Part shown: one piece after another, positions 1-36,932 of the stretch | Position numbering within the stretch: position 1 is the first letter of the stretch | Layout: the number at the start of each line of letters is the position of its first letter | DNA from: a virus | DNA length: 41,602 nucleotides | Strand: one strand, 5' to 3' | IMG/VR virus record: IMGVR_UViG_3300038466_000012 | Coordinates: 1-41,602 of that record | Notes under the pieces: generated by a model | What the model was told of the DNA's origin: nothing | Databases searched by the model: none | Seen by the model: only the letters and a program-made list of their open reading frames with translations | Program-made: the position numbers and the translations under genes

Positions 1-88
1 CTGTTGGCGAATCACCAACACCCTGTTGGCGAATCACCAACACCCTGTTGGCGAATCACCAACACCCTGTTGGCGAATCACCAACACC
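1..88. repeat. Iteron array, 4 perfect tandem copies of the 22-bp unit CTGTTGGCGAATCACCAACACC
   Basis: Units at 1-22, 23-44, 45-66 and 67-88. Each unit carries the inverted repeat TGTTGG-N7-CCAACA. The array lies inside the initiator reading frame. Confidence 0.9.
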
Positions 89-2397: not shown

Positions 2398-2415
2398 CTG
2401 CGGCAGGAGTTGACG

Positions 2416-3708: not shown

Positions 3709-3710
3709 TT

Positions 3711-10068: not shown

Positions 10069-10093
10069 CGCGAAAGGAAAAGGAGATAAAGCG

Positions 10094-20928: not shown

Positions 20929-21180
20929 ATGGGCGCAGAAGTAGTTGCAACGATCACCGTGGTTGTGTTTCTCCTGGGGATACTGATCGGGAACCAGGCG
21001 ACGAAAGTCAATACGCTCAGTCTGACTTTGGACGGCAAGATCAATATGGTAAAGACCGATACGGACAAGCGCCTCTCGCAAGTCGAGGCGGATATGAAGG
21101 AATATCGGGGCAACATGGCGGCAATGGCTGCCGACATCCGGGAAATTAAAACGCTGGTCAGCCGGGAGTACAAAACATGA
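20929..21180 (+). CDS. Small N-terminally anchored coiled-coil membrane protein (paralogue 1)
   Basis: TM segment VVATITVVVFLLGILIG is followed by a coiled coil. It shares DGKINMVKT / DAKIDTVKT with the next gene. Confidence 0.6.
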   Translation: MGAEVVATITVVVFLLGILIGNQATKVNTLSLTLDGKINMVKTDTDKRLSQVEADMKEYRGNMAAMAADIREIKTLVSREYKT

Positions 21181-21560
21181 ACCCGCAGCAAAAGAAAACA
21201 AGCTTAAACCTGAATTGGGTAGCGACCGGCTTGATAACGATACTGGTGTTTATCGGCGGGGCATTAATCAATGCGCAAAACAAGCTGGATGATAAGATGG
21301 ACGCCAAGATCGACACGGTGAAAACTTTCCAAGACGCGAAGATTAAGGAATGCTTTACGGCGACAAAGGAGAACGCCGACAGCATTGTCGAGTTGAGGGT
21401 GGCGCAGGCGGAGATTCGGACTGAGATGAAGTATGCCAACGAGAAACTTGACCGGATATTGAACTACCTGGACATCCCGATTCCGCGACGGGTTCCGCCG
21501 GTGACCAATTTGCAGGGCCGGGCCAGTGCGGTAGATAGTACAGGAGATTCGATGCGATGA
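21177..21560 (+). CDS. Small N-terminally anchored coiled-coil membrane protein (paralogue 2)
   Basis: TM segment WVATGLITILVFIGGALI is followed by a coiled coil. ATGA overlaps join it to both neighbours. Confidence 0.6.
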   Translation: MNPQQKKTSLNLNWVATGLITILVFIGGALINAQNKLDDKMDAKIDTVKTFQDAKIKECFTATKENADSIVELRVAQAEIRTEMKYANEKLDRILNYLDIPIPRRVPPVTNLQGRASAVDSTGDSMR

Positions 21561-23944
21561 AGTGGTGTCTCACAATTCTCCTCTTGTTGTTCGCGGTCGA
21601 GGCGTGGGCGCAAGACCTTACGCCGTCGATCAATACCACGTCCTACGTCTGTGGGGCTGACGGTAGTTGGGATGACGGCTACTGTTGGGATATGCTGGAT
21701 ATTGTGGAGCAGTATATCGGCTGGTCGGATGGTTCGTTGAATTGTTCGACCGATCCCGATTGGGCCGATTCTGTTCGGGCGCACGGGGCCGGGATCAGGA
21801 TGTACAACTACGCGACGATCAAGGGGGCGTGGGCGCAACGATATGGGGACACGTCAGGATATTCCGTGGGCCGGTTGTTGTTTTTCCCGGCGACCATGCT
21901 CTATAATATCTGTGCCCGCCGCTGGCCGGACTCGGCGGGGAATATGTATGAGCGACTCCACGAACATTATCAGGACAGCGTTGTATTTATTCATGGCGCA
22001 AATTACGTCCTATGCCCTCCGGCCGATGAAGATGCCGACGGTTTGATTGAAGCCGTGGACAGTTGTGCGCGAGTGATTTATTACATCAACGAGTATGCGT
22101 ACAGCGCGGAGGAAGTCGGCTACCGGGGAACAACCTGCAAAAAGGCGACGGGCAAGGGGCGCGTTCTCTATGCCATGAATGAGCCGTGGCAGCGGGAAGT
22201 CATTGCGGAGTATTTTCAATTCGCCTGCACGACGACCAGCGTGACGTTCTATTGTGATGGTGGGCCGCCGTACGACATTTATCTGGACAATGCCGACCAT
22301 GGCAACTCGCAAGTCCGGGGACGGCAGGACGACGCCAGCGGGGATCAGTTGGGGTCAATCGCTTCGAGTTGGGAAGCTCCCGACGACAGCAACGATATTG
22401 CCACTGGCGATGACTGCAACTGGTCGCCGTGGAAACACCAGCAGATGATGATTACTCTACAGGTGATCCGCGATTCAGTTGAATCAATCGGTCATCGGCT
22501 GTCAATCAATGTCGTGTACGGTACGCCATTGTCATACTACTACGACGTAGATACCGGGAGCGGTAACCTGTTCAACCCGGCGCGAATCCAGTTGAATGAG
22601 GAACGCATGGGCAGTTACGGGATAATGACTGCAAATAATTATGCCGGGTTATATCTGCCGACGCGGGTTGCCGACATAGAATCATGCGCGGCCAAAAACA
22701 TCCCCGTCAATTGGGATTCGTGGAATATCGTTTATACCGGGACGGCCAGCACGGAGCCGACCGTGCCGACCGGGTTCACCGGGATCGCCGAGTACATGAA
22801 TTACAATTCAATGTGCGCCTACTATCTGGCAAAACCACAGGCGACTGCCGACGACACGTTGTTTTGGATGTCGTTTAACGTGTCGTCATGTTCGGTGTGT
22901 GACCCTGTGACGTTGTGGTCGGGGGGCCACTGGTCGGACGCGATGGGGATAGATGTTGGCGTTCCTGATGCGCCGATGTTCACGGCATATACCGGGCCAT
23001 GCGATGACGGGGTTGCTCGCGGGGTAGAACCGGACTTGACCCGCATCTTCCGCCGGGATTATAACGATACCGGCTTTATGGTCTTATACCAGCCGTGCTG
23101 GGAATACTCCGATCATCCATATAACGTTCTCGGCGATTCGGTCTATGTGACGTATGACCCGCTGGACGTGGATACGATGTGGATGTTGCTCGGCGACGGG
23201 ACGTATAGCGATCCGATGCTGTCGGTTGACCTGCCTATTGGCTGCGGGGTCGTGCTGTTGACTTCGGGGAGCAACGGCTATGTGCCGGAAGAATCCGGGG
23301 TGACGGCGGTTGTGTTCGGCGGGACCGGGGCGGATTCGTCACTACTGGATGACGGGTTTATCAGTTATTTCGAGCAGGATTCACTCTATGGGATAGATAC
23401 CCTGGGCAATTACTTACGGATGTACGCCCACAACGACGTATACCCGCCGCCGTTACACGTCTCTTTATTGATTCCAGATTTGACGACGCTCCGGGCAATT
23501 GACGACACCCTCGACCGGGCCGTGTGGTATGGTTACTTCCCGTCGGGACAAGTGAGCGCCGGGGATTATTTCACGGCGTACTGTCTTGAGACTGATATCA
23601 CCTGGGACAATGTGACGTTTCCTTCTCGCAATCGGCCAAAGTCGGGATCGTATTGGGCAGGCGGCGGAGACTTTTCCTATCTCGATTTGGCGGGGGGCGA
23701 CGATACGGCAGACTTCGACATGAACATCTCCATGCCGTGTAGTGATTCGCTTGTGATAACCGGGCTGATGCAAAAGCTGAAGGATTCGACAACCTACGAG
23801 GGAATAGTATTTTGGATGCAGGACGATGATGCTTACAATTATATTTATTCACGTCAGGTTGAACATCCCGACACGCCGGATTCAATCGTTGTCTGGTACA
23901 GCGCGGATGAAACGACTTCCCGCAAGGTGAGGGTGCGGCGATGA
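21557..23944 (+). CDS. Secreted 795-aa protein; possible TIM-barrel glycoside-hydrolase-like core and DNRLRE-like C-terminal domain
   Basis: Signal peptide MKWCLTILLLLFAVEAWA|QD. ..NEPWQREVIAEYF..YDIYLDNADHG.. resembles the GH114/GHL-type pattern. The C-terminus ..ITWDNVTFPSR..YSRQVEHPDTPDSIVVWYS resembles DNRLRE domains. Both domain calls are tentative. Confidence 0.55.
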   Translation: MKWCLTILLLLFAVEAWAQDLTPSINTTSYVCGADGSWDDGYCWDMLDIVEQYIGWSDGSLNCSTDPDWADSVRAHGAGIRMYNYATIKGAWAQRYGDTSGYSVGRLLFFPATMLYNICARRWPDSAGNMYERLHEHYQDSVVFIHGANYVLCPPADEDADGLIEAVDSCARVIYYINEYAYSAEEVGYRGTTCKKATGKGRVLYAMNEPWQREVIAEYFQFACTTTSVTFYCDGGPPYDIYLDNADHGNSQVRGRQDDASGDQLGSIASSWEAPDDSNDIATGDDCNWSPWKHQQMMITLQVIRDSVESIGHRLSINVVYGTPLSYYYDVDTGSGNLFNPARIQLNEERMGSYGIMTANNYAGLYLPTRVADIESCAAKNIPVNWDSWNIVYTGTASTEPTVPTGFTGIAEYMNYNSMCAYYLAKPQATADDTLFWMSFNVSSCSVCDPVTLWSGGHWSDAMGIDVGVPDAPMFTAYTGPCDDGVARGVEPDLTRIFRRDYNDTGFMVLYQPCWEYSDHPYNVLGDSVYVTYDPLDVDTMWMLLGDGTYSDPMLSVDLPIGCGVVLLTSGSNGYVPEESGVTAVVFGGTGADSSLLDDGFISYFEQDSLYGIDTLGNYLRMYAHNDVYPPPLHVSLLIPDLTTLRAIDDTLDRAVWYGYFPSGQVSAGDYFTAYCLETDITWDNVTFPSRNRPKSGSYWAGGGDFSYLDLAGGDDTADFDMNISMPCSDSLVITGLMQKLKDSTTYEGIVFWMQDDDAYNYIYSRQVEHPDTPDSIVVWYSADETTSRKVRVRR

Positions 23945-24528
23945 AGAAGCTCTTGCTGCTGTTGTTCCTGCTGGTGCCGTCGGTCGCCGGGGCGGAGGTG
24001 TTCGGGAAGCAGACCGTGGAAACTGCCGGGCGATTGTCGATTGAAGCGACAACGTGTTGGGGATCGTTTCATTGGTATGATGCTTCAGGTAAGCAGCTTG
24101 ACAGCTTGACCGTTTACATACAGAACGAGAGCGTGGCGCGGAATATTCGCGTTGCTTTATTCAAGCGGACTTCTTCGACGACGTGGACGCTGGTTGACTC
24201 CGCTATTGAGAAAAGCGTTCCGGTTGATACTGATTGGGTTTCATTCCCGGCAGTCAACAATGCGATATTAGAAAACGGTTGTTATCGTATTCAAGCATGG
24301 GCACAAGCGGGGACAAACGGTATCTACGTTGTCTATGGCACGGGGTCGGCTTTAACAGACTCGGTGACGAGTGTCGCATTCAGTGGGTATGATGGATATA
24401 ACTGGCCTGCTACGTTGTCCGTTGGCACGCCGTATTATTACGACATTTCAGCATACGCAACAATATCAGTTCCGCCGGAAGGATCAACGAGTTCACGTCG
24501 TCGTCGGATAATCGGAGGTTCACAATGA
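23941..24528 (+). CDS. Secreted 195-aa beta-rich protein
   Basis: Signal peptide MKKLLLLLFLLVPSVAGA|EV. ATGA overlaps at both ends. Confidence 0.6.
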   Translation: MKKLLLLLFLLVPSVAGAEVFGKQTVETAGRLSIEATTCWGSFHWYDASGKQLDSLTVYIQNESVARNIRVALFKRTSSTTWTLVDSAIEKSVPVDTDWVSFPAVNNAILENGCYRIQAWAQAGTNGIYVVYGTGSALTDSVTSVAFSGYDGYNWPATLSVGTPYYYDISAYATISVPPEGSTSSRRRRIIGGSQ

Positions 24529-27500
24529 ACGAGTATACAAAGGTCAAAATAATCATCGCCGTTTTGATTACGGGGATATTGCTGTGTGTCTTGCCGTTTG
24601 CCTGCAATCAGGCAAGGGCCGGAATCCATAACAACAGTGCGGCAGATTCAGGGGAAGATACTGTTACGGTGACTTTCTCCCTGTTGGATACATTGGGCCA
24701 ACCGACACTTGCGGTAACGGGTGATTCTGCAATCATCTTTTACTTGAATCCCACGGGGGCAAAAAGCGACTCTATGAGAATAGATATTGCCGCCAGCGCA
24801 ACGACGACGAAAACACTTCTCGGCGGAAAAACAATTATTACGTATACCTATCCTCAATTGGTCGCTAATATTGATGATATTTGTGCGACTTGCAATGGTG
24901 TGTGGCGGTGGAAGGTATATGCCATTGACGAAGATTTAGATTTGGTGAGCTATTTTACCGACGAGTTCCAAGTCAACACAGGGTGGAATTTATCCGACTC
25001 GGCCATTGTTGACGGGTCGAGTTTTGCGTCATTGGACAACGCGATTGACGTGGGAGTCCTTGCTCAAAACTGTATCGGCACAGACGAAACAGGAGCGGGT
25101 TGTATAGATAGCTTCGCAATATCCTTCAACGCAAAGGTGGCCCTTGCCAATTTTATTTTTGGCTTTAACGACACCACGAAATTAGACACGTCTAAATTTG
25201 GTGCGTGGTTAAAGACAAACATCGGTACGCCGGGGCAAATATGGGGAGCGAACGACACCGGGGTCGTGGACACATCCAAGATCGGCGCTTGGCTGAAAAC
25301 AAACATCGGGACTCCGGGGCAGATATTCGGCACAAACGACACGTCGATCATCGACACGTCGAAACTCGGAGAATGGTTGGCATCGAATATGTCTATCGAT
25401 ACCGATGAGTTGACCGCCAAGGTCGATACCAACGTGTGGGAAACAAAGCAGGTTTACAACACTCTCTCCGCCGAGGACTGGACGAATCACTTTTTCCAGT
25501 ACGACGACGGGATATTGTTCTCCAACTGCGATACGATTACCGACTGGACATTTGAGCATGGCGGCAACGGGCGCATTGACGAAGAATACACCTTCAAAAA
25601 AGAAGGTGACGCCGGGGTCCATATCTGGACTGGCGACGGCGACACGGCGGTAATTTATACCACGTTGCCGACGTACTCGACAGGACGCCCACGGATACCG
25701 CACTTGTCAAATATCACCTTTGATTTGTACATCGACACGAATACCTTCTATCGGTCGCCGCGCTGCGTGAGCTACGCTGACAGCGCGTCAAGTCTACATT
25801 ATCTCAAAGTGATGCTGAGCCGCAATCTTGAGGACGGGCCGTTCAACACGACGACCGGCGGGTTTATGCAATACCTATTCCTCGATCAATCACTTGTTTC
25901 CGGTTGGCAGACTGTGACGGTGCCGGTACAGGGCATGGCTGAAATCGGTGACGCGGATTCATGCGATATTGATTTGGCGAATAAATATATCGGGTTCGAG
26001 GTCGGTGTTGATGGTGCTGGTGATTCGGTTTCAATCGTCATTGACAATATCAGGTTCAATGAGCGCGGACGAGCTAAGGTGATCTTCCGTTATGATGACG
26101 GCCTGATAAGTCAGTATACTCGTGCTTGGCCGTTGCATCGGAAATATCACCAGCGGGCAGCGTTTGCCGTGCGCGGCAATGACATATTGGGTGTTGGCGC
26201 AACAGACATGCACAAAGCCGAATTGGATGAAATTTATGCTGGCGGCAATGATATCATCAACCACGGGTGGAACGCACTGGCGCTTATCGACGTGACAGAT
26301 TCCACTGCGCGGATTGGAATTGACAAGGGGCAGCAGGTATTGCTTGATCTTGGCTACCCTCGTGGGGCGGGAGTATTCGCGCACGCGTCAAATTCGATTG
26401 ACACTATCGGGCTGAGGATCGTAAAGGAAAATCACCAGTTTGCTTGTGGCGGGCGGAACTCAATTCACCGGGGGCACGTTGATGTTATCACCGACCCGAC
26501 CGCCGATGAATTGTACAACTTCCCATACGTGTATATGGAGTATTCTGAGTCGGAAACAATGGACAGATACCGCCGGATGATTGACACGGCGATCATGCAG
26601 GGGAGCTTGTTGATCTTGTCCATGCACGACATTTGCAGTGCGGACAGTGCCAACGGGTCAGATGGTGCAGATATTTCAACGAACGTCGATTCGCTTGACG
26701 CCTTGTTGAGTTACGTCTATGACCTCCGGGCCAGCATCGACGTGACGACGTTCTCCGAGTATTTCAGTCACCAGCGTACATGGTCGGCGCAGTTGAATAC
26801 CATTGAGGATAACACAGATGAACTGAAGGACTCTGTGAAAACCCTCGACAACTGGATATGGGCGTTACGTGATTCGCTTGCTCTGGCCTACGCCGACCTC
26901 GACGCGATAGCCGATGGTGAAGTTGCTGACGGCGCATTGGATTTCGGCGGGGAGATTGACACTACCGGTCTGGGCGCGGCACCGTGGGCGCACGGCACGA
27001 AGGCCCTGACTGATAAATCCGGGTTCGCCCTGACCACCCAGGACTGGACGACCGATGCGGACTTGTTTTTGACTGCTGCCGGGGAAGATTCACTCTCGGT
27101 CCTTGTGAATAAGTTGATCTTACAATTGGACAGCGATTCCTTGCAAACATTGATGCAGGCGGTTATTGCCGGGGCGATTGCCGGAGATTCCGATGGGACG
27201 GCAATTCAGCGGCTTGCTTGGCTATGCCAGCAGGAGTATATCGACAGTGCAGGTCTTGTGGCCGGGGTGTGGGATGTAGATTCCTCGGCAGCGTTTGTCC
27301 TTGCCGGGGGAACAACGGCGACACTGTTGACACGGGCGGCAGCAGGGGGGGCGGCGGCATCATCACCCTGGACGGTTGCTGGTGTTGATTCGATGATTGA
27401 TATGTCGCTCGTTGTTGCAAAAGAGGCATCGGTAACGGCAGTACGCGATTCAATGGACGAAGCGGCGCAAGTTGCCGACGTGTCCGCTCTCGCGCTCGAA

Positions 27501-29600
27501 GCGTCCATAACCGCCATCCGAGATAGTTTGGACGAATGTGTGACCGCAGATGTTTCCGCTCTCGCGCTTGAGGCCAGTGTGACGGCTGTTCGGGACAGCA
27601 TGGATGAGGCCGCACAGGTAGCGACCGGCTTCTCCACTCACTCGGCGGCTGACGTGTGGGCGGTCGGGACGCGGACGTTGACCGCACTCGATGAGGACGC
27701 GACGACCATTGACTTGAATGCGACGGCTGTTGGGTCGGTGGCTGGCGGCGTTGGGTCGGTGACGGGGAGCGTCTTGGGTAATGTCAATGGGTCGGTCGGA
27801 TCGGTGACGGGGAATGTAGGCGGATCAGTCGCGTCGGTAACCGGAGCGGTTGGTTCCGTGACCGGAAATGTCGGCGGAAACGTAACCGGTTCCGTTGGGT
27901 CAGTTGTTGCAGCAGTTAATGTCGGATCGGTCAGTGGCAGCACACCGGCAGCGGATACTCTCGAATTGCGGATGTTGCGCAAGGCGCCGATATCCGGCGT
28001 AACCGAAGGAGTTGATCTTAAAGTTGCTTCCCCCGGATATGTTGGTGTAAATTGGGGAGATATCTATCTGCCGTCGTCCACAGTTTCTTTATCAAACACA
28101 ACAATAAAGGCGGTGGCCGAATTGTCCGCAACGTATCATCCTGGAGCAATTGCGGCCCACGTGCACGATACTCTAAATGCTCGCGCCGATGTCCCGGTGA
28201 ATGCTACGCAAATCAGCGGCAGTGCTGCGGCGGCGGATTCGGTTGAGCGTCAAATTCTTACCGGCAGAATTTTGGCCGACGTAAAGGCCCTCGACGGTGA
28301 CACGCTATCACTCGAAGATTTGAAGGATTTCGCCGACGACGGCTATGACCCGGCGGGCGATACGGTGCATACCGACATTGCGCTGGCCGGGAGTCTGATT
28401 ATCAGCGACGCTGATATGGGCCACGTTGCCGATTCGGTCTGGCAGAAGAACCGAAATGACGTAACAAAAAATGATGGGATGTATGGGAAATTGCTGGACA
28501 CCACCACCACGTCACGGGCAACGACCGGCACCAGTGTAACCGATGCAGATATGGTTGCCATTGCCGATACAATCCTCAATCGCAAGAGCTACCAGCAGAC
28601 CGACACGACAACCGTCGGCGGTCGGATTCATGCGTTGGGCGATTCGTTAATCAGTCAGGAGTGGGCGACCGCTGGGGCAACCGACGTGAGCGACGGGGAT
28701 ATGATTGCCATTGCGGATACCGTGCTCGGCCGCAAGGCGCACCAAAAAACGGATACGTCTACCGTCGGCGGGATCATCCATGCCATAGGTGATTCACTTA
28801 TCAGCCAAGAGTGGGCCACGTCCGGCGCGTCGGCGATCAGTGATGCAGACATTATTGCAATCGCCGATACTGTACTCAATCGCAAGAGTCATCAGCACGA
28901 TGACACCACGACTATCGGCGGTAAAATTCACGCGATGGGCGACTCCCTGAGTACGCAACTATGGGCAGGGTCATCGTACGGCAGCGGGCTACAGGTGGAC
29001 AGCATTTTCGTCTACGATTCATCCGGGACGGATACCCCGGTTCCCGGCGTTTCGGTCACGATCAAAAACGCGGGGATGACCGCCGACGTGGACTATGGGA
29101 TCAACACCAATTCGTCGGGCTATGTGACCTACAACCTCAATGCCAGCACAGCGTACAAGGGCGTATGTGCGGCACCCGGATACACGTTCCCGGTCTCAAG
29201 TTTCACCACGGGGGCCGGGGCGACCAACAACGATACCGTTTGGGGGTACAATATCACCGTCAGCGCACCGGATGACGCCGATCTCAAACGGATTTACGGC
29301 TGGATCAAGGACCTGTCGGACAGGGCACTGTCCGGGGCGATTGTCTCGCTTTCCCTCGACGTGCCGCATGATTCGATCCCGTGCCTGACCGGGACGGGCG
29401 TCACGGTCTACCGCACGGCAGTCCTCGACACGACCGACGCCAACGGATACTGGCAGCTGGATATCTATCCGACCGACGCGCTCACTCCGGCGGCCTGTAC
29501 CTATCAGTATCGGGCGACGTATAACAACGAGTATTTGCGGTGGCACAAGAAAACATTCTCGCCGACGGGGACAACATCACAACCGATCACGGACTATTGA
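24525..29600 (+). CDS. Giant 1691-aa repeat-rich fibre/surface protein with N-terminal anchor, CE4 polysaccharide-deacetylase-like core and C-terminal carboxypeptidase-regulatory-like beta-sandwiches
   Basis: N-terminus KIIIAVLITGILLCVLPFAC. NodB-like motifs are VIFRYDDGLISQY, INHGWN and LLILSMHD (nt ~26070-26640). There are four internal tandem-repeat blocks. The C-terminus has ..VPGVSVTIKN..NSSGYVTYNL.. and ..GAIVSLSL..DANGYWQLDIY... Confidence 0.75.
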   Translation: MNEYTKVKIIIAVLITGILLCVLPFACNQARAGIHNNSAADSGEDTVTVTFSLLDTLGQPTLAVTGDSAIIFYLNPTGAKSDSMRIDIAASATTTKTLLGGKTIITYTYPQLVANIDDICATCNGVWRWKVYAIDEDLDLVSYFTDEFQVNTGWNLSDSAIVDGSSFASLDNAIDVGVLAQNCIGTDETGAGCIDSFAISFNAKVALANFIFGFNDTTKLDTSKFGAWLKTNIGTPGQIWGANDTGVVDTSKIGAWLKTNIGTPGQIFGTNDTSIIDTSKLGEWLASNMSIDTDELTAKVDTNVWETKQVYNTLSAEDWTNHFFQYDDGILFSNCDTITDWTFEHGGNGRIDEEYTFKKEGDAGVHIWTGDGDTAVIYTTLPTYSTGRPRIPHLSNITFDLYIDTNTFYRSPRCVSYADSASSLHYLKVMLSRNLEDGPFNTTTGGFMQYLFLDQSLVSGWQTVTVPVQGMAEIGDADSCDIDLANKYIGFEVGVDGAGDSVSIVIDNIRFNERGRAKVIFRYDDGLISQYTRAWPLHRKYHQRAAFAVRGNDILGVGATDMHKAELDEIYAGGNDIINHGWNALALIDVTDSTARIGIDKGQQVLLDLGYPRGAGVFAHASNSIDTIGLRIVKENHQFACGGRNSIHRGHVDVITDPTADELYNFPYVYMEYSESETMDRYRRMIDTAIMQGSLLILSMHDICSADSANGSDGADISTNVDSLDALLSYVYDLRASIDVTTFSEYFSHQRTWSAQLNTIEDNTDELKDSVKTLDNWIWALRDSLALAYADLDAIADGEVADGALDFGGEIDTTGLGAAPWAHGTKALTDKSGFALTTQDWTTDADLFLTAAGEDSLSVLVNKLILQLDSDSLQTLMQAVIAGAIAGDSDGTAIQRLAWLCQQEYIDSAGLVAGVWDVDSSAAFVLAGGTTATLLTRAAAGGAAASSPWTVAGVDSMIDMSLVVAKEASVTAVRDSMDEAAQVADVSALALEASITAIRDSLDECVTADVSALALEASVTAVRDSMDEAAQVATGFSTHSAADVWAVGTRTLTALDEDATTIDLNATAVGSVAGGVGSVTGSVLGNVNGSVGSVTGNVGGSVASVTGAVGSVTGNVGGNVTGSVGSVVAAVNVGSVSGSTPAADTLELRMLRKAPISGVTEGVDLKVASPGYVGVNWGDIYLPSSTVSLSNTTIKAVAELSATYHPGAIAAHVHDTLNARADVPVNATQISGSAAAADSVERQILTGRILADVKALDGDTLSLEDLKDFADDGYDPAGDTVHTDIALAGSLIISDADMGHVADSVWQKNRNDVTKNDGMYGKLLDTTTTSRATTGTSVTDADMVAIADTILNRKSYQQTDTTTVGGRIHALGDSLISQEWATAGATDVSDGDMIAIADTVLGRKAHQKTDTSTVGGIIHAIGDSLISQEWATSGASAISDADIIAIADTVLNRKSHQHDDTTTIGGKIHAMGDSLSTQLWAGSSYGSGLQVDSIFVYDSSGTDTPVPGVSVTIKNAGMTADVDYGINTNSSGYVTYNLNASTAYKGVCAAPGYTFPVSSFTTGAGATNNDTVWGYNITVSAPDDADLKRIYGWIKDLSDRALSGAIVSLSLDVPHDSIPCLTGTGVTVYRTAVLDTTDANGYWQLDIYPTDALTPAACTYQYRATYNNEYLRWHKKTFSPTGTTSQPITDY
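25185..25391 (+). repeat. In-frame 84-bp (28-aa) tandem repeat, about 2.5 copies
   Basis: DTSKFGAWLKTNIGTPGQIWGANDTGVV / DTSKIGAWLKTNIGTPGQIFGTNDTSII / DTSKLGEWLASNM, starting at 25185, 25269 and 25353. The copies differ mostly at synonymous positions. Confidence 0.9.
27423..27623 (+). repeat. In-frame 72-75-bp tandem repeat, about 2.7 copies
   Basis: EASVTAVRDSMDEAAQVADVSALAL / EASITAIRDSLDECVTADVSALAL / EASVTAVRDSMDEAAQVA. Confidence 0.9.
27727..27946 (+). repeat. Low-complexity Gly/Ser/Val/Asn repeat (GSVTGNVGG-like nonamers)
   Basis: VGSVAGGVGSVTGSVLGNVNGSVGSVTGNVGGSVASVTGAVGSVTGNVGGNVTGSVGSV... Confidence 0.85.
28404..28980 (+). repeat. In-frame ~150-bp (45-50-aa) tandem repeat, 4 copies
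   Basis: Units start at 28404, 28539, 28689 and 28839. Consensus: (S/T)D(A/G)DM(I/V)AIADT(I/V)L(N/G)RK.HQ..DT(T/S)T(V/I)GG.IHA.GDSLISQEWAT.GA. Confidence 0.9.
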
Positions 29601-29601
29601 G

Positions 29602-29994
29602 ATGGGCGACCTGAGTAAAAACTTTGCGACCAGTGAGTTTCGCTGTCATTGCGGGTGTGAGCGGATGCAGGCCGATCCGCGCCTGCTGGCCGGGCTGGAG
29701 AAATTGCGCTCATTCATCCAGCGGCCGATCACAATCAACAGCGGGTTCCGTTGCCCGGCGCACAATGCAACTGTGGGTGGGGCGGCCAACAGTCAGCACG
29801 TGCTCGGGCGCGCGGCGGATATCACCGCTGAAAACTACACTCCATCGGAGCTATTTGTCGTCGCCGAGCACGTTCTCGAATTTCGCAATGGCGGGATCGG
29901 TATCTACCCGCTCGATGGATTTCTCCACGTCGATGTCCGGCAGGGGCGCGCGCGGTGGGGCTTGGATAAATTACTGAAAACGAAGGAGGTTTGA
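29602..29994 (+). CDS. Endolysin, peptidase M15 (zinc D-Ala-D-Ala carboxypeptidase-like) family
   Basis: Motifs SGFRCPAHN, SQHVLGRAADI and GFLHVD. No signal peptide. The gene starts 1 nt after the fibre gene stop. Confidence 0.85.
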   Translation: MGDLSKNFATSEFRCHCGCERMQADPRLLAGLEKLRSFIQRPITINSGFRCPAHNATVGGAANSQHVLGRAADITAENYTPSELFVVAEHVLEFRNGGIGIYPLDGFLHVDVRQGRARWGLDKLLKTKEV

Positions 29995-30204
29995 ATGAGC
30001 AAACTCCCGACCGATTCAGTCACGTTGATCGGGCTGATTGTGGTCTGTGCCAGTTTCGTCATCCCGCTGTGCATGGGAGTGACGGTCGCAGACCTGAAGG
30101 AGCTGGGCTTGGTCCTCAGTCCAGTCATCACTGGTTTTTTCACCTACCGGGGGTCAAAAATGACGCAAAACGGCAACGGAACAAAACCGCAGGAGGTAAA
30201 GTGA
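29995..30204 (+). CDS. Holin, two transmembrane segments
   Basis: 69 aa with TM1 VTLIGLIVVCASFVIPLCMGV, TM2 LGLVLSPVITGFFTY and a charged C-terminus. RBS GGAGG. It directly follows the endolysin (TGAATG). Confidence 0.7.
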   Translation: MSKLPTDSVTLIGLIVVCASFVIPLCMGVTVADLKELGLVLSPVITGFFTYRGSKMTQNGNGTKPQEVK

Positions 30205-30734
30205 AACCATTAAAGATCATCTTACTGGCCGCGATCCTGGCGGCCCTGATGTATCCCAACTGCATGGCGCAATGGGTTGCCGAACCGTCGGCGGTTGTCG
30301 GCGGCGCATTCATGGGCTTCGACCATAAAGTCCCCTACGGCGCGACGAAATACAGTTGGTTCGGTTTTTTCACGGCGGTCAAAACTGCCGAGGTCATCGA
30401 CGGGCGTATCTGGTGGTACAACGGCATCCAATATGGCAACGCGATATACCCCGGCGCCGCGGATAATTGGGGCGGCAATGCCCGGCTGGTATTCAAGGGA
30501 CGCTGGCCGGGATCGTATTTCTGGATCAGCTCCGGCTGGTATGATCACATTGCCGAAAAGGGAACTGATTACGAGTCCGGCCTGACGGTGTACGCCGGCG
30601 GATCCTACGATCTCGGCTCCGGGTTTAACCTGATGGGCGAGTACGGCTGGTCGGACCGGGGACCGGCGTTTCATTCCGAGGTCAAAATCGGCGTCGGTCT
30701 GGACGCCTGGGATTTGCTCAAAAAGAAAAAATGA
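30201..30734 (+). CDS. Exported aromatic/Gly-rich beta-strand protein (outer-membrane-barrel-like)
   Basis: GTG at 30201 follows GGAGG and overlaps the holin stop (GTGA). Signal peptide KIILLAAILAALMYPNCMA|QW. Alternating patterns such as GLTVYAGGSYDLGSGFNLMGEYGWS are present. There is no canonical lipobox and no terminal aromatic residue. Confidence 0.55.
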   Translation: MKPLKIILLAAILAALMYPNCMAQWVAEPSAVVGGAFMGFDHKVPYGATKYSWFGFFTAVKTAEVIDGRIWWYNGIQYGNAIYPGAADNWGGNARLVFKGRWPGSYFWISSGWYDHIAEKGTDYESGLTVYAGGSYDLGSGFNLMGEYGWSDRGPAFHSEVKIGVGLDAWDLLKKKK

Positions 30735-30742
30735 GGTGAGCC

Positions 30743-30952
30743 ATGAAATACGTTTTGATCGGGCTGATAATCGCGGCGGTGTTGATCGTGATCCGTGGCG
30801 CTGGCGGGGATGACCAGCCGCAGTTGTCGCAGCAGATTGAATTGCAGGGACCGCAGCAGGTAATGCAGCTCGTATTGATTCCCGACGGGGACGCCGTGCC
30901 GTTTTGCAGTCCGCTCCGGGGCTGTGTCGGAGGCCATTGGGAGCTGCTATGA
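30743..30952 (+). CDS. Small N-terminally anchored membrane protein
   Basis: 69 aa with TM YVLIGLIIAAVLIVI. RBS GAGGTGAG. An ATGA overlap joins it to the patatin gene. Confidence 0.55.
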   Translation: MKYVLIGLIIAAVLIVIRGAGGDDQPQLSQQIELQGPQQVMQLVLIPDGDAVPFCSPLRGCVGGHWELL

Positions 30953-31761
30953 GGGCACTGGTATTGTCCGGCGGCGGGGCGAAAGGCGCGTTCGAAGCCG
31001 GGGTATGTCTGGAGCTGGCCGCGGCCGGCCGGGACTACGACCTGATCGTCGGGGTTTCGACCGGCGCGCTGGCCGCAGTAGTGCTCGGCCAGGATACGTT
31101 TGCCGAGGCCGCCGAGCGGTTGCGCGCCCACTACCAGGCGATCCGGGGGCCGTCCGACGTATACCATTCCCGCTCGTTGTGGGGCAAAATCCGGGGCGGG
31201 CTATACTCCCCGGCGCCGCTCCGCAAAAAGATCGAGACCGAGGTTGCCCGTGGGAAATGGCAGCGGCAGGTGGCCGTGGGCGTGGTCGATATGCGATCGG
31301 GGGAATTTAAGACCGTCGGCCCGGACGATCCCTGTTTCGTCGATTATGTGCTGGCCTCGTGCAGTTTCCCGCCATATTTTCCGCCGGTTAAAATCTGGGG
31401 GCGGCCATACATGGACGGCGGCCTGCGCAATATCGCGCCGCTGGCAACGGCGATACAGGCCGGGGCGTCGTACGTGGATATGATTCTGGCGAGTCCGGCG
31501 ACGGTCGACGAGTGGCCGGGGACCGGCTGGACGTGGGATATCGCGGGCCGGGCGATCACCGTCGCCGTCAACGAGGTCTACCGGGACGATATGACGTACA
31601 GCGGCTATGCGGATATCCTGAGGTACGAGCCGTCGGTCGCCGACTGGCGGCGGCTGTACGGCAACATCCCGTATATCGGCACGCTGGAGTTTGACCCGGC
31701 CCAGATACAGCGGGCGATTGAGTATGGCCGGATTGCCGGGCACAAAATTTTGAGCGTTTGA
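30949..31761 (+). CDS. Patatin-like phospholipase
   Basis: 270 aa. Oxyanion motif SGGGAKGAFEAG, nucleophile elbow GVSTG and catalytic Asp motif MDGGLRN are all present in the canonical order. No signal peptide. RBS GGGAG lies 5 nt upstream. Confidence 0.85.
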   Translation: MRALVLSGGGAKGAFEAGVCLELAAAGRDYDLIVGVSTGALAAVVLGQDTFAEAAERLRAHYQAIRGPSDVYHSRSLWGKIRGGLYSPAPLRKKIETEVARGKWQRQVAVGVVDMRSGEFKTVGPDDPCFVDYVLASCSFPPYFPPVKIWGRPYMDGGLRNIAPLATAIQAGASYVDMILASPATVDEWPGTGWTWDIAGRAITVAVNEVYRDDMTYSGYADILRYEPSVADWRRLYGNIPYIGTLEFDPAQIQRAIEYGRIAGHKILSV

Positions 31762-31795
31762 CCTGCCCTGTGGTGGGGCAGCATCCTCCGTGGAC

Positions 31796-31832
31796 ACCCC
31801 GTCGGGCCGCATCCCCGACGGGGTTTTATTTT
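31796..31832 (+). terminator. Rho-independent terminator ending the late/lysis operon
   Basis: ACCCCGTCGGG (31796-31806), loop CCGCAT, CCCCGACGGGGT (31813-31824), then TTTATTTT. Confidence 0.8.
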
Positions 31833-31943
31833 GCCCGGCGGCTGCGCCCGCTTGCGACTGCGCGACGATAATTTCCCCGGCGACCACAGGGCCAATAAAA
31901 AGATCGTCGCTGTACGGGCATTTCTCGCGGTTTTTGGGCTGGT

Positions 31944-31970: not shown

Positions 31971-32003
31971 CAAGTCTGTGCGTTGTAAATGCTTGGTGGG
32001 AAA

Positions 32004-32065
32004 TTGAAAATAAATTGAAAAAATATTGAAAAAAAGCTTGACAAATGTTAAACTAATCGTATCTT
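32004..32065 (+). promoter_or_regulatory. Early promoter with phased A-tract/TTGAAAA upstream element
   Basis: TTGAAAA occurs at 32004, 32015 and 32026 (11-bp phasing). TTGACA (32038-32043) is followed by a 16-nt spacer and TATCTT (32060-32065). The first early gene starts at 32122. Confidence 0.6.
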
Positions 32066-36144: not shown

Positions 36145-36580
36145 CACGCAAGACCTGATTCTTGAGTTTGGTAAAAAACATCGGGGCGAGAGGGTACAGC
36201 GGGTCGTTGCCAGTTATCTGCTGTGGATGGTCAACGAGCTTGAACAGGAGAACCCGTGGCGAGCGATTGCTGAGGCCGAACTCAAGCGGCGCGGGACAGT
36301 ATTGCCGCAGATAGATATTTCCGGCCATGCGATTGATCGGGCGTCGCTCAATCCAAAAGTGCGCGCAATCTGGCATGAAACGTCTAACCCGGATGAGGGG
36401 CTTCATGCGTGGCTGGTGCGTGCGGGGCAGGAAGCGCGGATCACCGGGCTTGTCGAAAAGCAAGGTGACGATGAAGTCGCCTACTATGGCGGGATCAAAT
36501 GGGTGTTTGAACTCGGCAACAACTGGCCGACACTCAAGACCCTGATGCCGAAAGAACGGAGAGATACCGATGACCAGTAA
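36134..36580 (+). CDS. Hypothetical protein, N-terminus DUF3820-like
   Basis: The ATG at 36134 has better RBS spacing than 36125. ..LEFGKKHRGERVQRVVASYLLWMV.. resembles the FGKHKG..YL.W motif. Confidence 0.5.
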   Translation: MPTDTQDLILEFGKKHRGERVQRVVASYLLWMVNELEQENPWRAIAEAELKRRGTVLPQIDISGHAIDRASLNPKVRAIWHETSNPDEGLHAWLVRAGQEARITGLVEKQGDDEVAYYGGIKWVFELGNNWPTLKTLMPKERRDTDDQ

Positions 36581-36932
36581 ACGAACCCTCGCCCTCGTGG
36601 TGATTATTGCATTCTTTTTCGGTGTATTGAGTTGCTGGCAATTTTTCTACTTCCATGTGCCTATATCTGTAAAAGAAAGAATTGTGCATATATTGGTGCA
36701 GGAGCCGTCAGATCGCTTACATCGTTTGTTGCTACAGTCGAAAGATTACACCTCTTACAAATCTTACAAAGAGCTTGGAACTTATCTGTTGGTTTCCGAA
36801 GATACAACAAAAATTTATGATTCTCCGTGCTGCGGAGATACGAGCATTGTCGTGACGGTCTGGTGTGATTCAGTATGGATAGTTGAAAATTGCGAAATTA
36901 ATACAATCCAGAGGGGCCAGCATGACCACTAA
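36570..36932 (+). CDS. Membrane-anchored or lipoprotein-like protein in a low-GC patch
   Basis: 120 aa with N-terminus MTSKRTLALVVIIAFFFGVLSC (a lipobox-like VLSC). Two sampled 60-nt lines hand-counted at 37-40% GC. Confidence 0.55.
   Translation: MTSKRTLALVVIIAFFFGVLSCWQFFYFHVPISVKERIVHILVQEPSDRLHRLLLQSKDYTSYKSYKELGTYLLVSEDTTKIYDSPCCGDTSIVVTVWCDSVWIVENCEINTIQRGQHDH

What the first reader, a model, noticed from the sequence alone, without database searches (positions are those of the whole stretch)
29602..31832. Five-gene lysis operon ending in a phospholipase, with no recognisable spanin pair
The operon runs M15 endolysin, 2-TM holin, exported beta-rich protein, 69-aa TM protein, patatin-like phospholipase. 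The genes are chained by TGAATG, GTGA and ATGA junctions, and a strong terminator closes the operon. In Gram-negative-type lysis cassettes the genes after the holin and endolysin are normally Rz/Rz1 spanins. Here I see no lipobox protein and no embedded or overlapping Rz1-like ORF. I infer that outer-membrane disruption may instead be enzymatic, by lipid hydrolysis. That would be conceptually like mycobacteriophage LysB, but using a patatin fold helped by an exported OMP-like protein. I do not know of this arrangement as a described lysis route.
Basis: partly seen in the sequence, partly recalled or inferred. Interest (0 to 1): 0.75.

Follow-up and report, generated by a model that had tools for sequence, protein, structure and literature searches.

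The report
Phage lysis genes with barrel and lipase
An uncultured phage ends its late genes with a cell-wall enzyme, a membrane hole-former, an outer-membrane barrel protein that always travels with them, and a less constant phospholipase; no standard outer-membrane-breaking pair sits next to them, so one or both extra proteins may do that job in a way nobody has tested.

Summary
Five tightly chained, selection-constrained genes lie at 29602-31761, closed by a strong terminator. They are an M15 endolysin, a small holin-like protein, an exported 177-aa protein (g3), a 69-aa protein with an N-terminal transmembrane domain (g4), and a patatin with all its catalytic motifs. No lipobox o-spanin or u-spanin exists anywhere in the 41.6-kb genome.

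In relatives, the constant partner of holin and endolysin is g3, not the patatin. g3 is predicted to be an eight-stranded outer-membrane beta-barrel of the OmpX/Ail/OmpA class. It directly follows a holin-like gene in 9 of 10 lineages, alongside three unrelated endolysin types.

The patatin is present in only 3 of those lineages and is the strongest GC outlier in the genome. It lacks an export signal and behaves like mobile cargo. Even so, it sits beside an endolysin or an endolysin remnant in 4 of 5 lineages of its own clade, and a distant patatin abuts a GH108 endolysin in another phage group. A patatin-based lytic cassette has already been hypothesised for Wolbachia phage WO.

Two i-spanin-like ORFs (20929-21560) lie in the tail module. 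My best reading is a holin/endolysin cassette whose outer-membrane step is carried by the barrel protein, with the patatin as a late-released lipolytic accessory. Nothing here is functionally proven.

The parts
24525..29600 (+). Upstream 1691-aa tail-fibre-like gene with a polysaccharide deacetylase domain. Its stop codon lies 1 nt before the endolysin ATG, so the lysis genes are the end of the same late transcription unit.
   Evidence: ORF and junction. Pfam Polysacc_deac_1 at E 1.1e-5. No + strand promoter-like site between 29000 and 29602.
29602..29994 (+). Endolysin: a 130-aa single-domain zinc peptidase of family M15 with no signal peptide or TMD, hence dependent on the holin for release.
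   Evidence: Pfam Peptidase_M15_3 at E 1.1e-22. PHROG 894 'endolysin' at E 3.3e-36. Best 15-residue hydropathy average only 0.9. Orthologues at 48% identity head the same cassette in L010 and L018.
29995..30204 (+). Holin-like 69-aa membrane protein with one strong TMD (about residues 9-31), a weaker second hydrophobic segment (about 36-51), and a charged C-terminal tail carrying an NG-rich motif.
   Evidence: Sequence and hydropathy. Proteins of equivalent size and architecture sit directly upstream of g3 in 9 of 10 lineages. The L110 C-terminus is 83% identical. No PHROG or Pfam family matches, so 'holin' rests on architecture and position.
30201..30734 (+). g3: a Sec-exported 177-aa protein predicted to be an eight-stranded outer-membrane beta-barrel with a short C-terminal helix. 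It is the conserved third gene of the cassette.
   Evidence: The signal peptide has an AxA-type cleavage site, and its Cys is not conserved in relatives. AlphaFold2 model: pLDDT 78, pTM 0.68, 8 strands. Foldseek matches a designed transmembrane barrel, OmpX, Ail, NspA and the OmpA transmembrane domain at E 9e-5 to 1e-3, and phage 'outer membrane protein beta-barrel' models. The 12-sequence family alignment has no invariant Ser, His or Asp. dN/dS is 0.20.
30743..30952 (+). g4: a 69-aa protein with an N-terminal TMD and a Pro/Gln-rich tail of about 45 residues with one conserved Cys. Its stop overlaps the patatin start (ATGA).
   Evidence: ORF. The orthologue in L011 is 64% identical with dN/dS 0.18. 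It is absent from the L001-L007 patatin cassette and from all cassettes that lack a patatin. No family match.
30949..31761 (+). Patatin-like phospholipase: 270 aa, catalytic domain only, with no signal peptide or TMD.
   Evidence: Pfam PF01734 at E 3.6e-28, above the gathering score. GGGAKG, GVSTG and DGG are invariant in the phage clade. AlphaFold2 model with pTM 0.77 matches viral patatins. GC is 0.647 against a gene mean of 0.537 (sd 0.038). It is not CapV: 48.5 bits against a cut-off of 200.
31796..31834 (+). Intrinsic terminator closing the late unit.
   Evidence: An 11-bp stem with 9 G-C pairs, a 7-nt loop and a TTTTATTTTG tail. The next promoter-like site is at 32038-32065.
20929..21560 (+). 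Two overlapping small ORFs (83 aa and 127 aa), each with an N-terminal TMD followed by a coiled coil. This is i-spanin-like architecture, but they sit inside the tail module about 9 kb upstream. They are possible inner-membrane partners, unproven.
   Evidence: Hydropathy and sequence. Weak PHROG 739 'Rz-like spanin' hits: E 0.023 for the 127-aa ORF and 4.9e-4 for the L002 homologue. Homology to L002 3973-4320 at E 1e-7, with a Cys aligned in both sequences. No lipobox ORF is embedded in or adjacent to them.

Best explanation
The region is the terminal lysis module of the late operon of an uncultured siphovirus-like phage that infects a diderm host.

Shown:
- a cytoplasmic M15 endolysin;
- a small holin-like membrane protein;
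- a Sec-exported protein, g3, predicted to fold as an eight-stranded outer-membrane beta-barrel;
- a small TMD protein, g4;
- a patatin with complete catalytic motifs and no export signal;
- co-transcription of all five genes and purifying selection on g3, g4 and the patatin.

Inferred mechanism:
1. The holin permeabilises the inner membrane and releases the endolysin, which degrades the wall.
2. The outer-membrane step is carried by g3. It is the only extra gene that stays attached to the holin gene across ten lineages and three endolysin types, and it sits in the slot where spanins normally lie.
3. g3 has no conserved catalytic residues. It would therefore act structurally, as an outer-membrane-anchored disruptor or as the outer-membrane half of a non-canonical spanin-like bridge.
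4. The patatin, with g4 where present, is an accessory and horizontally mobile add-on. It is made in the cytoplasm and reaches envelope phospholipids only after the holin fires. It then hydrolyses lipids of the inner membrane and the inner leaflet of the outer membrane, which speeds or completes envelope collapse. In logic this resembles mycobacteriophage LysB, but it is not the core outer-membrane device.
For: Identity of the parts.

Synteny:
- A g3 homologue (24-75% identity) directly follows a 60-70-aa holin-like gene, overlapping it or separated by at most 47 nt, in the window, L011, L012/13, L014-17, L010/19, L018, L001-7, L109 and L110.
- The endolysin upstream of the holin is M15, NlpC/P60 or a PHROG-3108 lysozyme-like protein, depending on lineage.
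- In L010 and L018 the cassette is only endolysin-holin-g3, followed by early HTH genes.

g3 family: it is tiny and phage-restricted, with 9 hits among 1.84 billion representatives and none in GTDB genomes.

Patatin:
- It is present in 3 of the 10 g3 lineages and is a GC outlier, z = 2.9 in the window and 0.604 against 0.505 in L002.
- It lacks a signal peptide or TMD.
- It is adjacent to an endolysin or endolysin remnant in 4 of 5 lineages of its clade.
- A 25-26%-identical patatin overlaps or neighbours a GH108 endolysin in L024 and L025.

Spanins: no lipobox protein exists in the genome.

Literature: about 13% of phages of Gram-negative hosts lack recognisable spanins, and 'an OMP could act as an o-spanin' (PMC6139136). 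Patatin has been proposed as a lytic enzyme of phage WO (PMC9203015).
Against: - No functional data exist for any of the five genes.
- Conserved position is guilt by association. The ends of late operons and the neighbourhood of lysis genes are also classic sites for cargo genes.
- g3 resembles lambda Lom and Ail/OmpX-type barrels, which are not lysis proteins.
- No mechanism is known by which a monomeric eight-stranded barrel would rupture an outer membrane, and barrel assembly is slow relative to a lysis trigger.
- One g3-like gene (L108) is not next to a holin or endolysin.
- The g3 model rests on six sequences (pLDDT 78).
- An unregulated cytoplasmic phospholipase made before holin triggering should damage the inner membrane early, so some control must exist that I cannot see.
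- The host is unknown.
Confidence: 0.42

Rival explanations
1. The patatin is the functional replacement for spanins. After holin and endolysin action it hydrolyses outer-membrane phospholipids and so ruptures the outer membrane, with g3 and g4 as helpers.
For: - The patatin has a complete catalytic apparatus.
- It is translationally coupled into the lysis operon.
- No canonical spanin exists in the genome.
- Patatin-endolysin adjacency recurs in this clade, in the L024/L025 GH108 lineage, and in phage WO according to the literature.
- LysB is a precedent for an enzymatic outer-layer step.
Against: - Seven of ten lineages with the same holin-g3 module have no patatin. Some end the cassette at g3 (L010, L018). 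Others carry a different ~200-aa protein or a RyR-domain protein in the patatin's place.
- The gene is a compositional outlier.
- The L008 orthologue is not near any lysis gene.
- In L009 the patatin is intact beside a decayed endolysin. That fits a role independent of lysis.
- g4 is missing from the L001-L007 cassette.
Confidence: 0.15
2. g3, g4 and the patatin are cargo (moron-type) genes that merely ride on late transcription at the operon end and do not take part in host lysis. Possible roles are surface remodelling or superinfection exclusion by the barrel protein, as with Lom-type proteins. The patatin could be an enzyme or toxin liberated by lysis to act on other cells, on membrane debris or on vesicles.
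For: - The patatin's GC deviates from the genome, and its presence and position vary among relatives.
- In temperate relatives it sits next to the integrase and attachment end.
- The downstream slot is a swap site. It holds a patatin, a RyR-domain protein, a ~200-aa family, or nothing.
- In L025 the endolysin neighbourhood also holds an esterase/lipase, a secreted SNase and a solute-binding protein. That looks like a cargo hot spot.
- Small phage-encoded outer-membrane barrels are common in environmental phages without any known lysis role.
Against: - No separate promoter precedes g3 or the patatin. The genes overlap or abut the holin gene.
- The g3-holin linkage survives three endolysin replacements and 24-75% sequence divergence. 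That is tighter than expected for an unrelated passenger.
- g3 is present in the window phage, where I found no integrase, although not every ORF was screened.
- The g3 family is absent from bacterial genomes.
Confidence: 0.3
3. A spanin does exist but is non-canonical and split. One or both of the TMD-plus-coiled-coil ORFs at 20929-21560 form the inner-membrane subunit, and the barrel protein g3 replaces the lipoprotein o-spanin as the outer-membrane subunit. The patatin is irrelevant to the outer-membrane step.
For: - The ORFs have i-spanin architecture, with a Cys aligned in the window and L002 sequences in the predicted periplasmic part.
- They give weak hits to Rz-like spanin PHROG 739, at E 0.023 and 4.9e-4.
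- ORFs of similar architecture occur in L002 and L010 at the same place.
- In L108, a 143-aa ORF with an N-terminal TMD and a coiled coil lies 78 nt upstream of the g3-like gene.
- Kongari et al. foresaw OMP-type o-spanins and widely separated pairs.
Against: - The PHROG hits are weak and could reflect coiled-coil composition.
- The ORFs lie inside the tail-gene block, 9 kb from g3.
- The L108 protein shows no significant similarity to them.
- The database search found no homologues at all.
- No interaction evidence exists.
Confidence: 0.1

Closest known systems
Two-component spanins (lambda Rz/Rz1) and unimolecular spanins (T1 gp11)
   Same: g3 sits in the same genomic slot, directly after holin and endolysin at the end of the late operon. 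The host envelope problem is the same: removing the outer membrane. g3, like an o-spanin, is an outer-membrane protein made late. ORFs with i-spanin-like architecture exist elsewhere in the genome.
   Different: There is no lipobox protein, no embedded or overlapped gene pair, and no C-terminal TMD. The outer-membrane protein is an integral beta-barrel rather than a lipoprotein. g4 has only about 45 residues beyond its TMD, in a Pro/Gln-rich tail, where i-spanins carry a longer coiled-coil periplasmic domain; g4's secondary structure was not computed.
Mycobacteriophage Lysin B (mycolylarabinogalactan esterase; e.g. PMC7246905, PMC7022511)
   Same: Both are lipolytic enzymes encoded in the lysis cassette beside the endolysin and holin. 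Both have no signal sequence and are thought to attack the outer lipid layer once the inner layers are breached.
   Different: LysB has a cutinase-like alpha/beta-hydrolase fold and cleaves the mycolate-arabinogalactan ester of mycobacteria. Here the fold is patatin, with a Ser-Asp dyad, and the host has a classical outer membrane with barrel proteins. LysB is near-universal in its phage group, whereas this patatin is sporadic (3 of 10 lineages).
Putative patatin-based lytic cassette of Wolbachia phage WO (PMC9203015; PMC3173496)
   Same: Both are tailed-phage patatins placed next to a small holin-like membrane protein near the tail module and proposed to act in lysis. Both are untested experimentally.
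   Different: In WO the patatin is proposed to replace the endolysin, in a host in which peptidoglycan has not been detected, and it is accompanied by ankyrin proteins. Here a bona fide endolysin is present and the patatin follows an outer-membrane barrel. I did not test sequence relatedness to the WO patatin.
Small eight-stranded outer-membrane barrels: OmpX, Ail, lambda Lom, NspA and the OmpA transmembrane domain
   Same: g3 has a signal peptide, a mature size of about 150 residues, a predicted eight-stranded antiparallel barrel, and Foldseek probability 1.0 with TM-scores of 0.5-0.76. Lom is likewise phage-encoded.
   Different: g3 gives no Pfam, PHROG or NCBIfam sequence match. The family is tiny and phage-only. 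It is fixed next to the holin rather than in a tail or lysogeny-expressed moron position. A short C-terminal helix follows the last strand.
phiKT gp28 'disruptin' (bioRxiv 10.1101/515445)
   Same: It is a precedent that phages of Gram-negative hosts without spanins use a different protein for the outer-membrane step.
   Different: gp28 is a small cationic antimicrobial-peptide-like protein. It is neither an exported barrel nor an enzyme.
CBASS effector CapV and other defence patatins
   Same: They share the patatin catalytic core. The best PADLOC and NCBIfam hits are to these, as are the sequence matches to solved CapV structures.
   Different: The score is 48.5 bits against the 200-bit equivalog cut-off, and only residues 2-170 align. 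No cyclase or other signalling partner is nearby. The gene lies inside a phage late operon.

Membership tests
Patatin-like phospholipase (Pfam PF01734) | Profile match above the curated gathering score | tested here: met
   99.5 bits against a cut-off of 27.7, E 3.6e-28, residues 4-168.
Patatin-like phospholipase (Pfam PF01734) | Oxyanion-hole motif GGGx[KR]G, nucleophile motif GxSxG, and catalytic Asp in DG[GA] | tested here: met
   SGGGAKG at residues 7-13, GVSTG at 35-39 and DGG at 156-158. All are invariant in the five-member phage clade.
Patatin-like phospholipase (Pfam PF01734) | Lipid acyl-hydrolase activity | not testable with these tools
   Needs an enzyme assay.
CBASS cGAMP-activated phospholipase CapV | NCBIfam equivalog score at or above the cut-off, and an adjacent CD-NTase | tested here: not met
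   NF041079 scores 48.5 bits against a cut-off of 200. The neighbours are lysis genes and a terminator.
Two-component spanin (i-spanin plus o-spanin) | o-spanin: a small outer-membrane lipoprotein with a lipobox, encoded embedded in, overlapping, or just downstream of the i-spanin gene | tested here: not met
   Strict and relaxed lipobox scans of all ORFs on both strands gave only three hits, none credible. The one near the cassette is off-frame and not conserved.
Two-component spanin (i-spanin plus o-spanin) | i-spanin: an N-terminal TMD plus a periplasmic coiled-coil domain | tested here: inconclusive
   g4 has the TMD but only a ~45-residue Pro/Gln-rich tail beyond it. ORFs 20929-21180 and 21177-21560 have the architecture and weak PHROG 739 hits at E 0.023 and 4.9e-4, but they lie in the tail module and have no lipoprotein partner.
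Unimolecular spanin (T1 gp11 type) | An N-terminal lipobox and a C-terminal TMD in one protein | tested here: not met
   No ORF combines the two. The Cys in the g3 signal peptide is not conserved, and g3 has no C-terminal TMD.
Holin | A small protein with at least one TMD and a charged C-terminus, encoded next to the endolysin | tested here: met
   69 aa with a strong first TMD, a weaker second hydrophobic segment and a Lys-rich C-terminal tail. It abuts the endolysin stop.
Holin | Timed lethal permeabilisation of the inner membrane | not testable with these tools
   No PHROG or Pfam holin family matches. The function is inferred only.
Small outer-membrane beta-barrel (OmpX/Ail/OmpA-TM class) | A cleavable signal peptide and eight antiparallel transmembrane strands | tested here: met
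   The AlphaFold2 model shows a signal helix plus 8 strands of 10-15 residues, with pLDDT 78. Foldseek hits are OmpX, Ail, NspA, the OmpA transmembrane domain and a designed barrel at E 9e-5 to 1e-3.
Small outer-membrane beta-barrel (OmpX/Ail/OmpA-TM class) | Sequence membership of a described OMP family, or a terminal aromatic beta-signal | tested here: inconclusive
   No Pfam, PHROG or NCBIfam hit. Close members end in a Lys-rich helix, while distant members end in ...GLF or ...GIL.
Barrel enzymes acting on outer-membrane lipids (PagP, PagL, OMPLA) | Conserved catalytic Ser/His (plus Asp, Asn or Glu) | tested here: not met
   The invariant residues in the 12-sequence alignment are Gly, Tyr and Trp only. 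None of these enzymes is among the listed (top 50) fold hits.
Mycobacteriophage LysB | A cutinase-like alpha/beta-hydrolase fold with esterase activity on mycolyl-arabinogalactan | tested here: not met
   The fold is patatin. The host has a barrel-protein outer membrane. The resemblance is in logic only.
Moron / cargo gene | Its own promoter and terminator, plus composition deviating from the genome | tested here: inconclusive
   The patatin's GC has z = 2.9 and its presence is variable. However, there is no upstream promoter, its start overlaps g4, and the terminator is shared with the operon.

The most novel reading that the evidence does not exclude
The g3 family is a previously unrecognised class of phage outer-membrane-disruption protein. 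It is an integral eight-stranded beta-barrel that takes the place of the o-spanin lipoprotein. It would work either alone or bridged to an inner-membrane TMD/coiled-coil partner (20929-21560, or g4). In some lineages a holin-released phospholipase (patatin) would be added as a second, enzymatic hit on the envelope. This would be the 'OMP as o-spanin' possibility that Kongari et al. 2018 raised but that has no example.
Probability: 0.28. Interest if true: 0.85.

Novelty: new variant of a known kind. Interest (0 to 1): 0.6.

Why it matters
About one in eight phages of Gram-negative hosts has no recognisable spanin, and only one alternative (phiKT gp28) has been shown experimentally. This cassette offers two concrete, clonable candidates for further routes. 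One is an outer-membrane barrel protein locked to the holin gene across ten lineages. The other is a patatin phospholipase that repeatedly lands beside endolysins in unrelated phages.

Both candidates can be tested directly in the established lambda Rz/Rz1-null complementation system. A positive result would add a new class of lysis protein and would give the first experimental footing to the patatin-lysis idea so far only hypothesised for phage WO. It would also improve annotation of environmental phages and widen the toolbox for breaching Gram-negative envelopes. A negative result would show that late-operon ends collect envelope-active cargo, which is useful for interpreting such gene neighbourhoods.

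Tried and rejected
- **DNA relatives among cultured phages:** none for the region by blastn. The g3 protein also found nothing by tblastn.
- **Portal protein for host assignment:** uninformative, at most 28% identity.
- **GTDB genome scans for a prophage copy to name the host:** nothing for g3, and only patatins of at most 34% identity over the full length in cellular genomes. The host remains unknown.
- **g3 as a lipoprotein or u-spanin:** rejected. The Cys is not conserved and there is no C-terminal TMD.
- **g3 as a PagP/PagL/OMPLA-type barrel enzyme:** rejected. No conserved catalytic residues and no such fold hits among those listed.
- **Patatin as a CBASS or other defence effector:** rejected. 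It scores far below the equivalog cut-off and has no partner genes.
- **Lipobox ORF 29624-29977 inside the endolysin gene as an embedded o-spanin:** rejected. That frame is closed by stops in both M15 relatives.
- **Homologue search for the 127-aa i-spanin-like ORF:** found only the ORF itself.
- **The ~200-aa protein that replaces the patatin downstream of g3 in four lineages:** I suspected a permuted papain-like or lipid-active hydrolase because of a VCS[ST]G motif conserved in its two full-length members. No Pfam hit at E up to 1 and no PDB profile hit at E up to 10, so the idea is dropped as unsupported.
- **My earlier reading that the L009 patatin was unrelated to lysis genes:** corrected. 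The ORF upstream is the C-terminal remnant of an NlpC/P60 endolysin.
- **L147 (M15 peptidase near a 29%-identical patatin):** not used as evidence. I saw no phage structural genes by eye in its ORF list (no family scan was run), so phage origin is unsupported.
- **Rhodothermus phage RM378 patatin:** it lies among replication genes, not lysis genes.

Full report
**What is there**

The window is a whole 41,602-nt JGI metagenome contig. The patatin and g3 products were both recovered from a single contig of exactly this length. Its two ends carry the same 22-nt tandem array, so it is probably a complete, circularly assembled phage genome.

All recognisable genes lie on the + strand:
- a ParB-methyltransferase fusion, 2410-3708;
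- large terminase, 3709-5781;
- portal, 5766-7802;
- a protease/major-capsid fusion, 7936-10068;
- tape-measure protein, 15981-17573;
- large tail proteins;
- a 1691-aa fibre with a polysaccharide deacetylase domain, 24525-29600.

No cultured phage is close. There is no blastn hit, and the portal is at most 28% identical to any cultured phage.

**Checking the observation**

The five ORFs and their junctions are exactly as described:
- The endolysin (29602-29994) is a 130-aa single-domain Peptidase_M15_3 (E 1.1e-22; PHROG 'endolysin' E 3.3e-36). It has no hydrophobic segment.
- The 69-aa protein (29995-30204) has one strong TMD, a weaker second hydrophobic stretch, and a charged tail.
- g3 (30201-30734) starts at a GTG that overlaps the holin stop.
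- g4 (30743-30952) follows after 8 nt that contain GAGGTGA.
- The patatin (30949-31761) starts at an ATG overlapping the g4 stop. It carries GGGAKG, GVSTG and DGG.
- A terminator with an 11-bp stem (9 G-C pairs) and a T run closes the unit at 31796-31824. The next promoter-like site is at 32038.

Against the L011 orthologues, dN/dS is 0.18 for g4, 0.20 for g3 and 0.21 for the patatin, so all three are maintained by selection.

Two corrections apply. First, the endolysin ATG lies 1 nt after the fibre gene stop and no promoter-like site precedes it. The 'operon' is therefore the tail end of the late transcription unit. Second, the holin is called on architecture and position only, because no holin family matches.

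**Is a spanin really missing?**

I scanned every ORF from every start codon on both strands for lipoboxes, with strict and then relaxed patterns. Only three hits appeared:
- One is off-frame inside the endolysin gene, and the same frame is full of stops in the two M15 relatives.
- One is on the minus strand inside the tape-measure gene.
- One (36570-36932) sits in the early region, where the motif lies within a long N-terminal hydrophobic stretch.

So there is no o-spanin or u-spanin.

Each has an N-terminal TMD followed by a coiled coil. The 127-aa ORF is homologous to a 115-aa ORF at the same place in a related phage (E 1e-7, with a Cys aligned in both sequences). Both give weak hits to the Rz-like spanin PHROG 739, at E 0.023 and 4.9e-4. 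These hits are too weak to call a spanin, the ORFs have no lipoprotein partner, and a database search found no other relatives. They do mean that 'no i-spanin-like protein anywhere' cannot be asserted.

**What g3 is**

Its N-terminus is a Sec signal with an AxA-type cleavage site. The single Cys in it is not conserved among homologues, so it is not a lipoprotein.

An AlphaFold2 model built on six sequences (pLDDT 78, pTM 0.68) shows the signal helix, eight antiparallel strands of 10-15 residues, and a short C-terminal helix.
- Foldseek against the PDB returns a designed transmembrane barrel, OmpX, Ail, NspA and the OmpA transmembrane domain, at E 9e-5 to 1e-3.
- Foldseek against viral models returns phage 'outer membrane protein beta-barrel' entries.

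In a 12-sequence family alignment only Gly, Tyr and Trp are invariant. An enzymatic barrel of the PagP, PagL or OMPLA kind is therefore unlikely.

The family is very small. It has nine significant hits among 1.84 billion cluster representatives, none in 185,579 GTDB genomes, and none among cultured phages. An exported outer-membrane barrel also settles that the host is diderm.

**What relatives show**

This is the decisive evidence. I recovered the context of g3 homologues (24-75% identity) in ten lineages. In the table, 'holin' means a holin-like gene.

| Lineage | Gene order |
|---|---|
| Window | M15, holin, g3, g4, patatin |
| L011 | NlpC/P60, holin, g3, g4, patatin |
| L001-L007 / L111 | NlpC/P60, holin, g3-like, patatin, then integrase on the other strand |
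| L012/13 | PHROG-3108 lysozyme-like, holin, g3, RyR-domain protein, ~200-aa protein |
| L014-17 | NlpC/P60-like, 99-aa protein, holin, g3, ~200-aa protein |
| L010/19 | M15, holin, g3, then early HTH genes |
| L018 | M15, holin, g3, then early HTH genes |
| L109 | endolysin end, holin, g3, ~200-aa protein |
| L110 | holin, g3, ~200-aa protein |
| L108 | 143-aa TMD/coiled-coil protein, then g3-like |

In nine of the ten lineages, a 60-70-aa membrane protein lies directly upstream of g3. It overlaps g3 or is separated by at most 47 nt. The endolysin type changes three times around this pair.

The gene downstream of g3 varies. It is a patatin in three lineages (with g4 in two of them), an uncharacterised ~200-aa family in four, and nothing in two. 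The constant companion of the holin is therefore the barrel protein, not the phospholipase.

**What the patatin looks like from outside**

- Its clade is small and distinct, with five members at 46-68% identity. The next relatives are cellular RssA/NTE-type proteins at 39% identity or less.
- It is the most GC-rich gene in the genome: 0.647 against a mean of 0.537 (sd 0.038, maximum 0.598) for 38 other genes. The same holds in L002.
- It has no signal peptide or TMD.
- It is not a CapV-type defence effector: 48.5 bits against a cut-off of 200, with no partner genes.

Of the five lineages of its clade:
- three carry it after g3;
- in L009 it directly follows the C-terminal remnant of an NlpC/P60 endolysin (tblastn 36% identity, E 2.6e-7), beside a tRNA-Arg gene and an integrase;
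- in L008 it lies after regulatory-looking genes and before the ParB-methyltransferase gene, with no lysis gene in view.

Independently, a 25-26%-identical patatin overlaps or neighbours a GH108 endolysin (Pfam E 5e-27) in viral contigs L024 and L025. That neighbourhood also holds a 172-aa protein (PHROG 1544, function unknown), a secreted SNase and, in L025, an esterase/lipase.

Patatins are otherwise rare in tailed phages. Only 10 of 50,697 phage records matched. RM378 carries one among replication genes. Structural matches are mostly to giant-virus proteins.

**How it most likely works**

Shown: the gene identities, the predicted barrel fold, co-transcription, purifying selection, and the synteny pattern.

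Inferred:
1. The endolysin has no export signal, so the holin must form lesions large enough to release folded proteins. The same lesions would release the 30-kDa patatin.
2. The outer-membrane step is most economically assigned to g3. It is the only additional gene fixed to the holin in all but one lineage, and it sits in the slot where spanins normally lie.
3. Lacking catalytic residues, g3 would act structurally. It could work alone, or as the outer-membrane anchor of a bridge to an inner-membrane protein (g4, or the coiled-coil ORFs at 20929-21560).
4. The patatin, with g4 where present, is an accessory that hydrolyses envelope phospholipids after holin triggering. This follows LysB-like logic but is not the core device.

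I put this composite reading at about 0.42. The main rival, at about 0.30, is that g3, g4 and the patatin are cargo carried at the operon end. A split non-canonical spanin formed by the coiled-coil ORFs and g3 gets about 0.10, and it overlaps with the best reading.

**Weak points**
- There are no functional data.
- No mechanism is known for a monomeric eight-stranded barrel to rupture a membrane.
- The g3 model rests on few sequences.
- A cytoplasmic phospholipase made before triggering needs some form of restraint that I cannot identify.
- The host is unknown.

**Comparison with what is known**

The cassette fails every defining test for canonical spanins, because it has no lipobox, no nested pair and no C-terminal TMD. 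It still occupies their position.

Kongari et al. 2018 reported that about 13% of phages of Gram-negative hosts lack identifiable spanins. They noted that 'an OMP could act as an o-spanin' (PMC6139136). My full-text searches of the held open-access library turned up no example of such a case.

phiKT gp28 is the one demonstrated non-spanin route (bioRxiv 10.1101/515445). LysB is the enzymatic precedent, but it has a different fold and envelope (PMC7246905, PMC7022511). A 'patatin-based lytic cassette' of patatin plus a holin-like protein has been proposed, untested, for Wolbachia phage WO, where it would replace the endolysin (PMC9203015, PMC3173496).

The recent LambdaSo study found that an apparent absence of spanins hid a nested Rz/Rz1 pair, and it also uncovered an additional small TMD lysis factor (bioRxiv 10.1101/2024.01.23.576932). 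This is a reminder that small membrane proteins such as g4 can have holin-level roles.

**Verdict**

The finding is best filed as a new variant of the holin/endolysin lysis cassette with two untested candidate outer-membrane factors. The more novel and better-supported lead is the holin-linked outer-membrane barrel family. The patatin is a recurrent but dispensable companion. Interest is 0.6.

Noticed in passing
window 1-88 and 41467-41602: Both contig ends consist of the same 22-nt tandem unit, CTGTTGGCGAATCACCAACACC, with 4 copies at the start and 6 at the end. The first 88 nt recur at 41515. The contig is probably a circular, complete genome joined inside an iteron-like array of about ten copies.
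   Followed up: partly
window 20929-21180 and 21177-21560: Two overlapping small ORFs inside the tail-gene block, each with an N-terminal TMD and a coiled coil. An L002 ORF at the same place is homologous, and an L010 ORF there has a similar N-terminal TMD. They give weak hits to Rz-like spanin PHROGs.
   Followed up: partly
window 10049-10633, 23941-24528, 24525-29600: Three proteins in the structural module begin with signal-peptide-like or TMD-like hydrophobic N-termini: MKRFLILIALAALVVAASTAPVSA from an internal Met; MKKLLLLLFLLVPSVAGA; and MNEYTKVKIIIAVLITGILLCVLPFAC on the 1691-aa fibre. This is unusual for virion proteins. The 195-aa protein has a 35%-identical homologue in L002.
   Followed up: no
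L012 3679-4287; L014 1933-2523; L109 819-1004; L110 677-907: An uncharacterised cytoplasmic protein family of about 200 aa follows g3 in four lineages, in the slot the patatin occupies in three others. Its two full-length members share a VCS[ST]G motif. It has no Pfam or PDB-sequence match.
   Followed up: partly
L024 3594-7064; L025 1879-6349: A separate phage lineage packs a GH108 endolysin, a distant patatin, a 172-aa protein (PHROG 1544, function unknown), a secreted staphylococcal-type nuclease, a solute-binding protein and, in L025, an alpha/beta esterase/lipase into one block. This suggests that envelope- or debris-degrading cargo gathers around lysis genes.
   Followed up: partly
L009 342-3524: An intact patatin directly follows only the C-terminal remnant of an NlpC/P60 endolysin; I saw no catalytic-Cys region. 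Next come a tRNA-Arg(CCT) gene and an integrase. It looks like a decayed prophage end in which the patatin has outlived the endolysin.
   Followed up: partly
window 30949-31761: The patatin is the most GC-rich gene of the genome: GC 0.647 and GC3 0.80, against means of 0.537 and 0.64 for 38 other genes. The L002 orthologue deviates in the same way.
   Followed up: yes
window 36570-36932: A 120-aa ORF in the early region has a lipobox-like GVLSC within a long N-terminal hydrophobic segment and the lowest GC3 seen (0.45). It could be a membrane or lipoprotein moron. No family match.
   Followed up: no
window 32001-32065: Three copies of AAATTGAAAAA lie immediately upstream of the best promoter-like site (TTGACA, 16 nt, TATCTT), which opens the next gene block after the terminator.
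   Followed up: no
window 2410-3708; L008 3106-4353: A ParB-like nuclease domain fused to an N6/N4 DNA methyltransferase lies just upstream of the terminase. In L008 the same fusion gene follows the patatin after an intergenic gap of about 500 nt.
   Followed up: no
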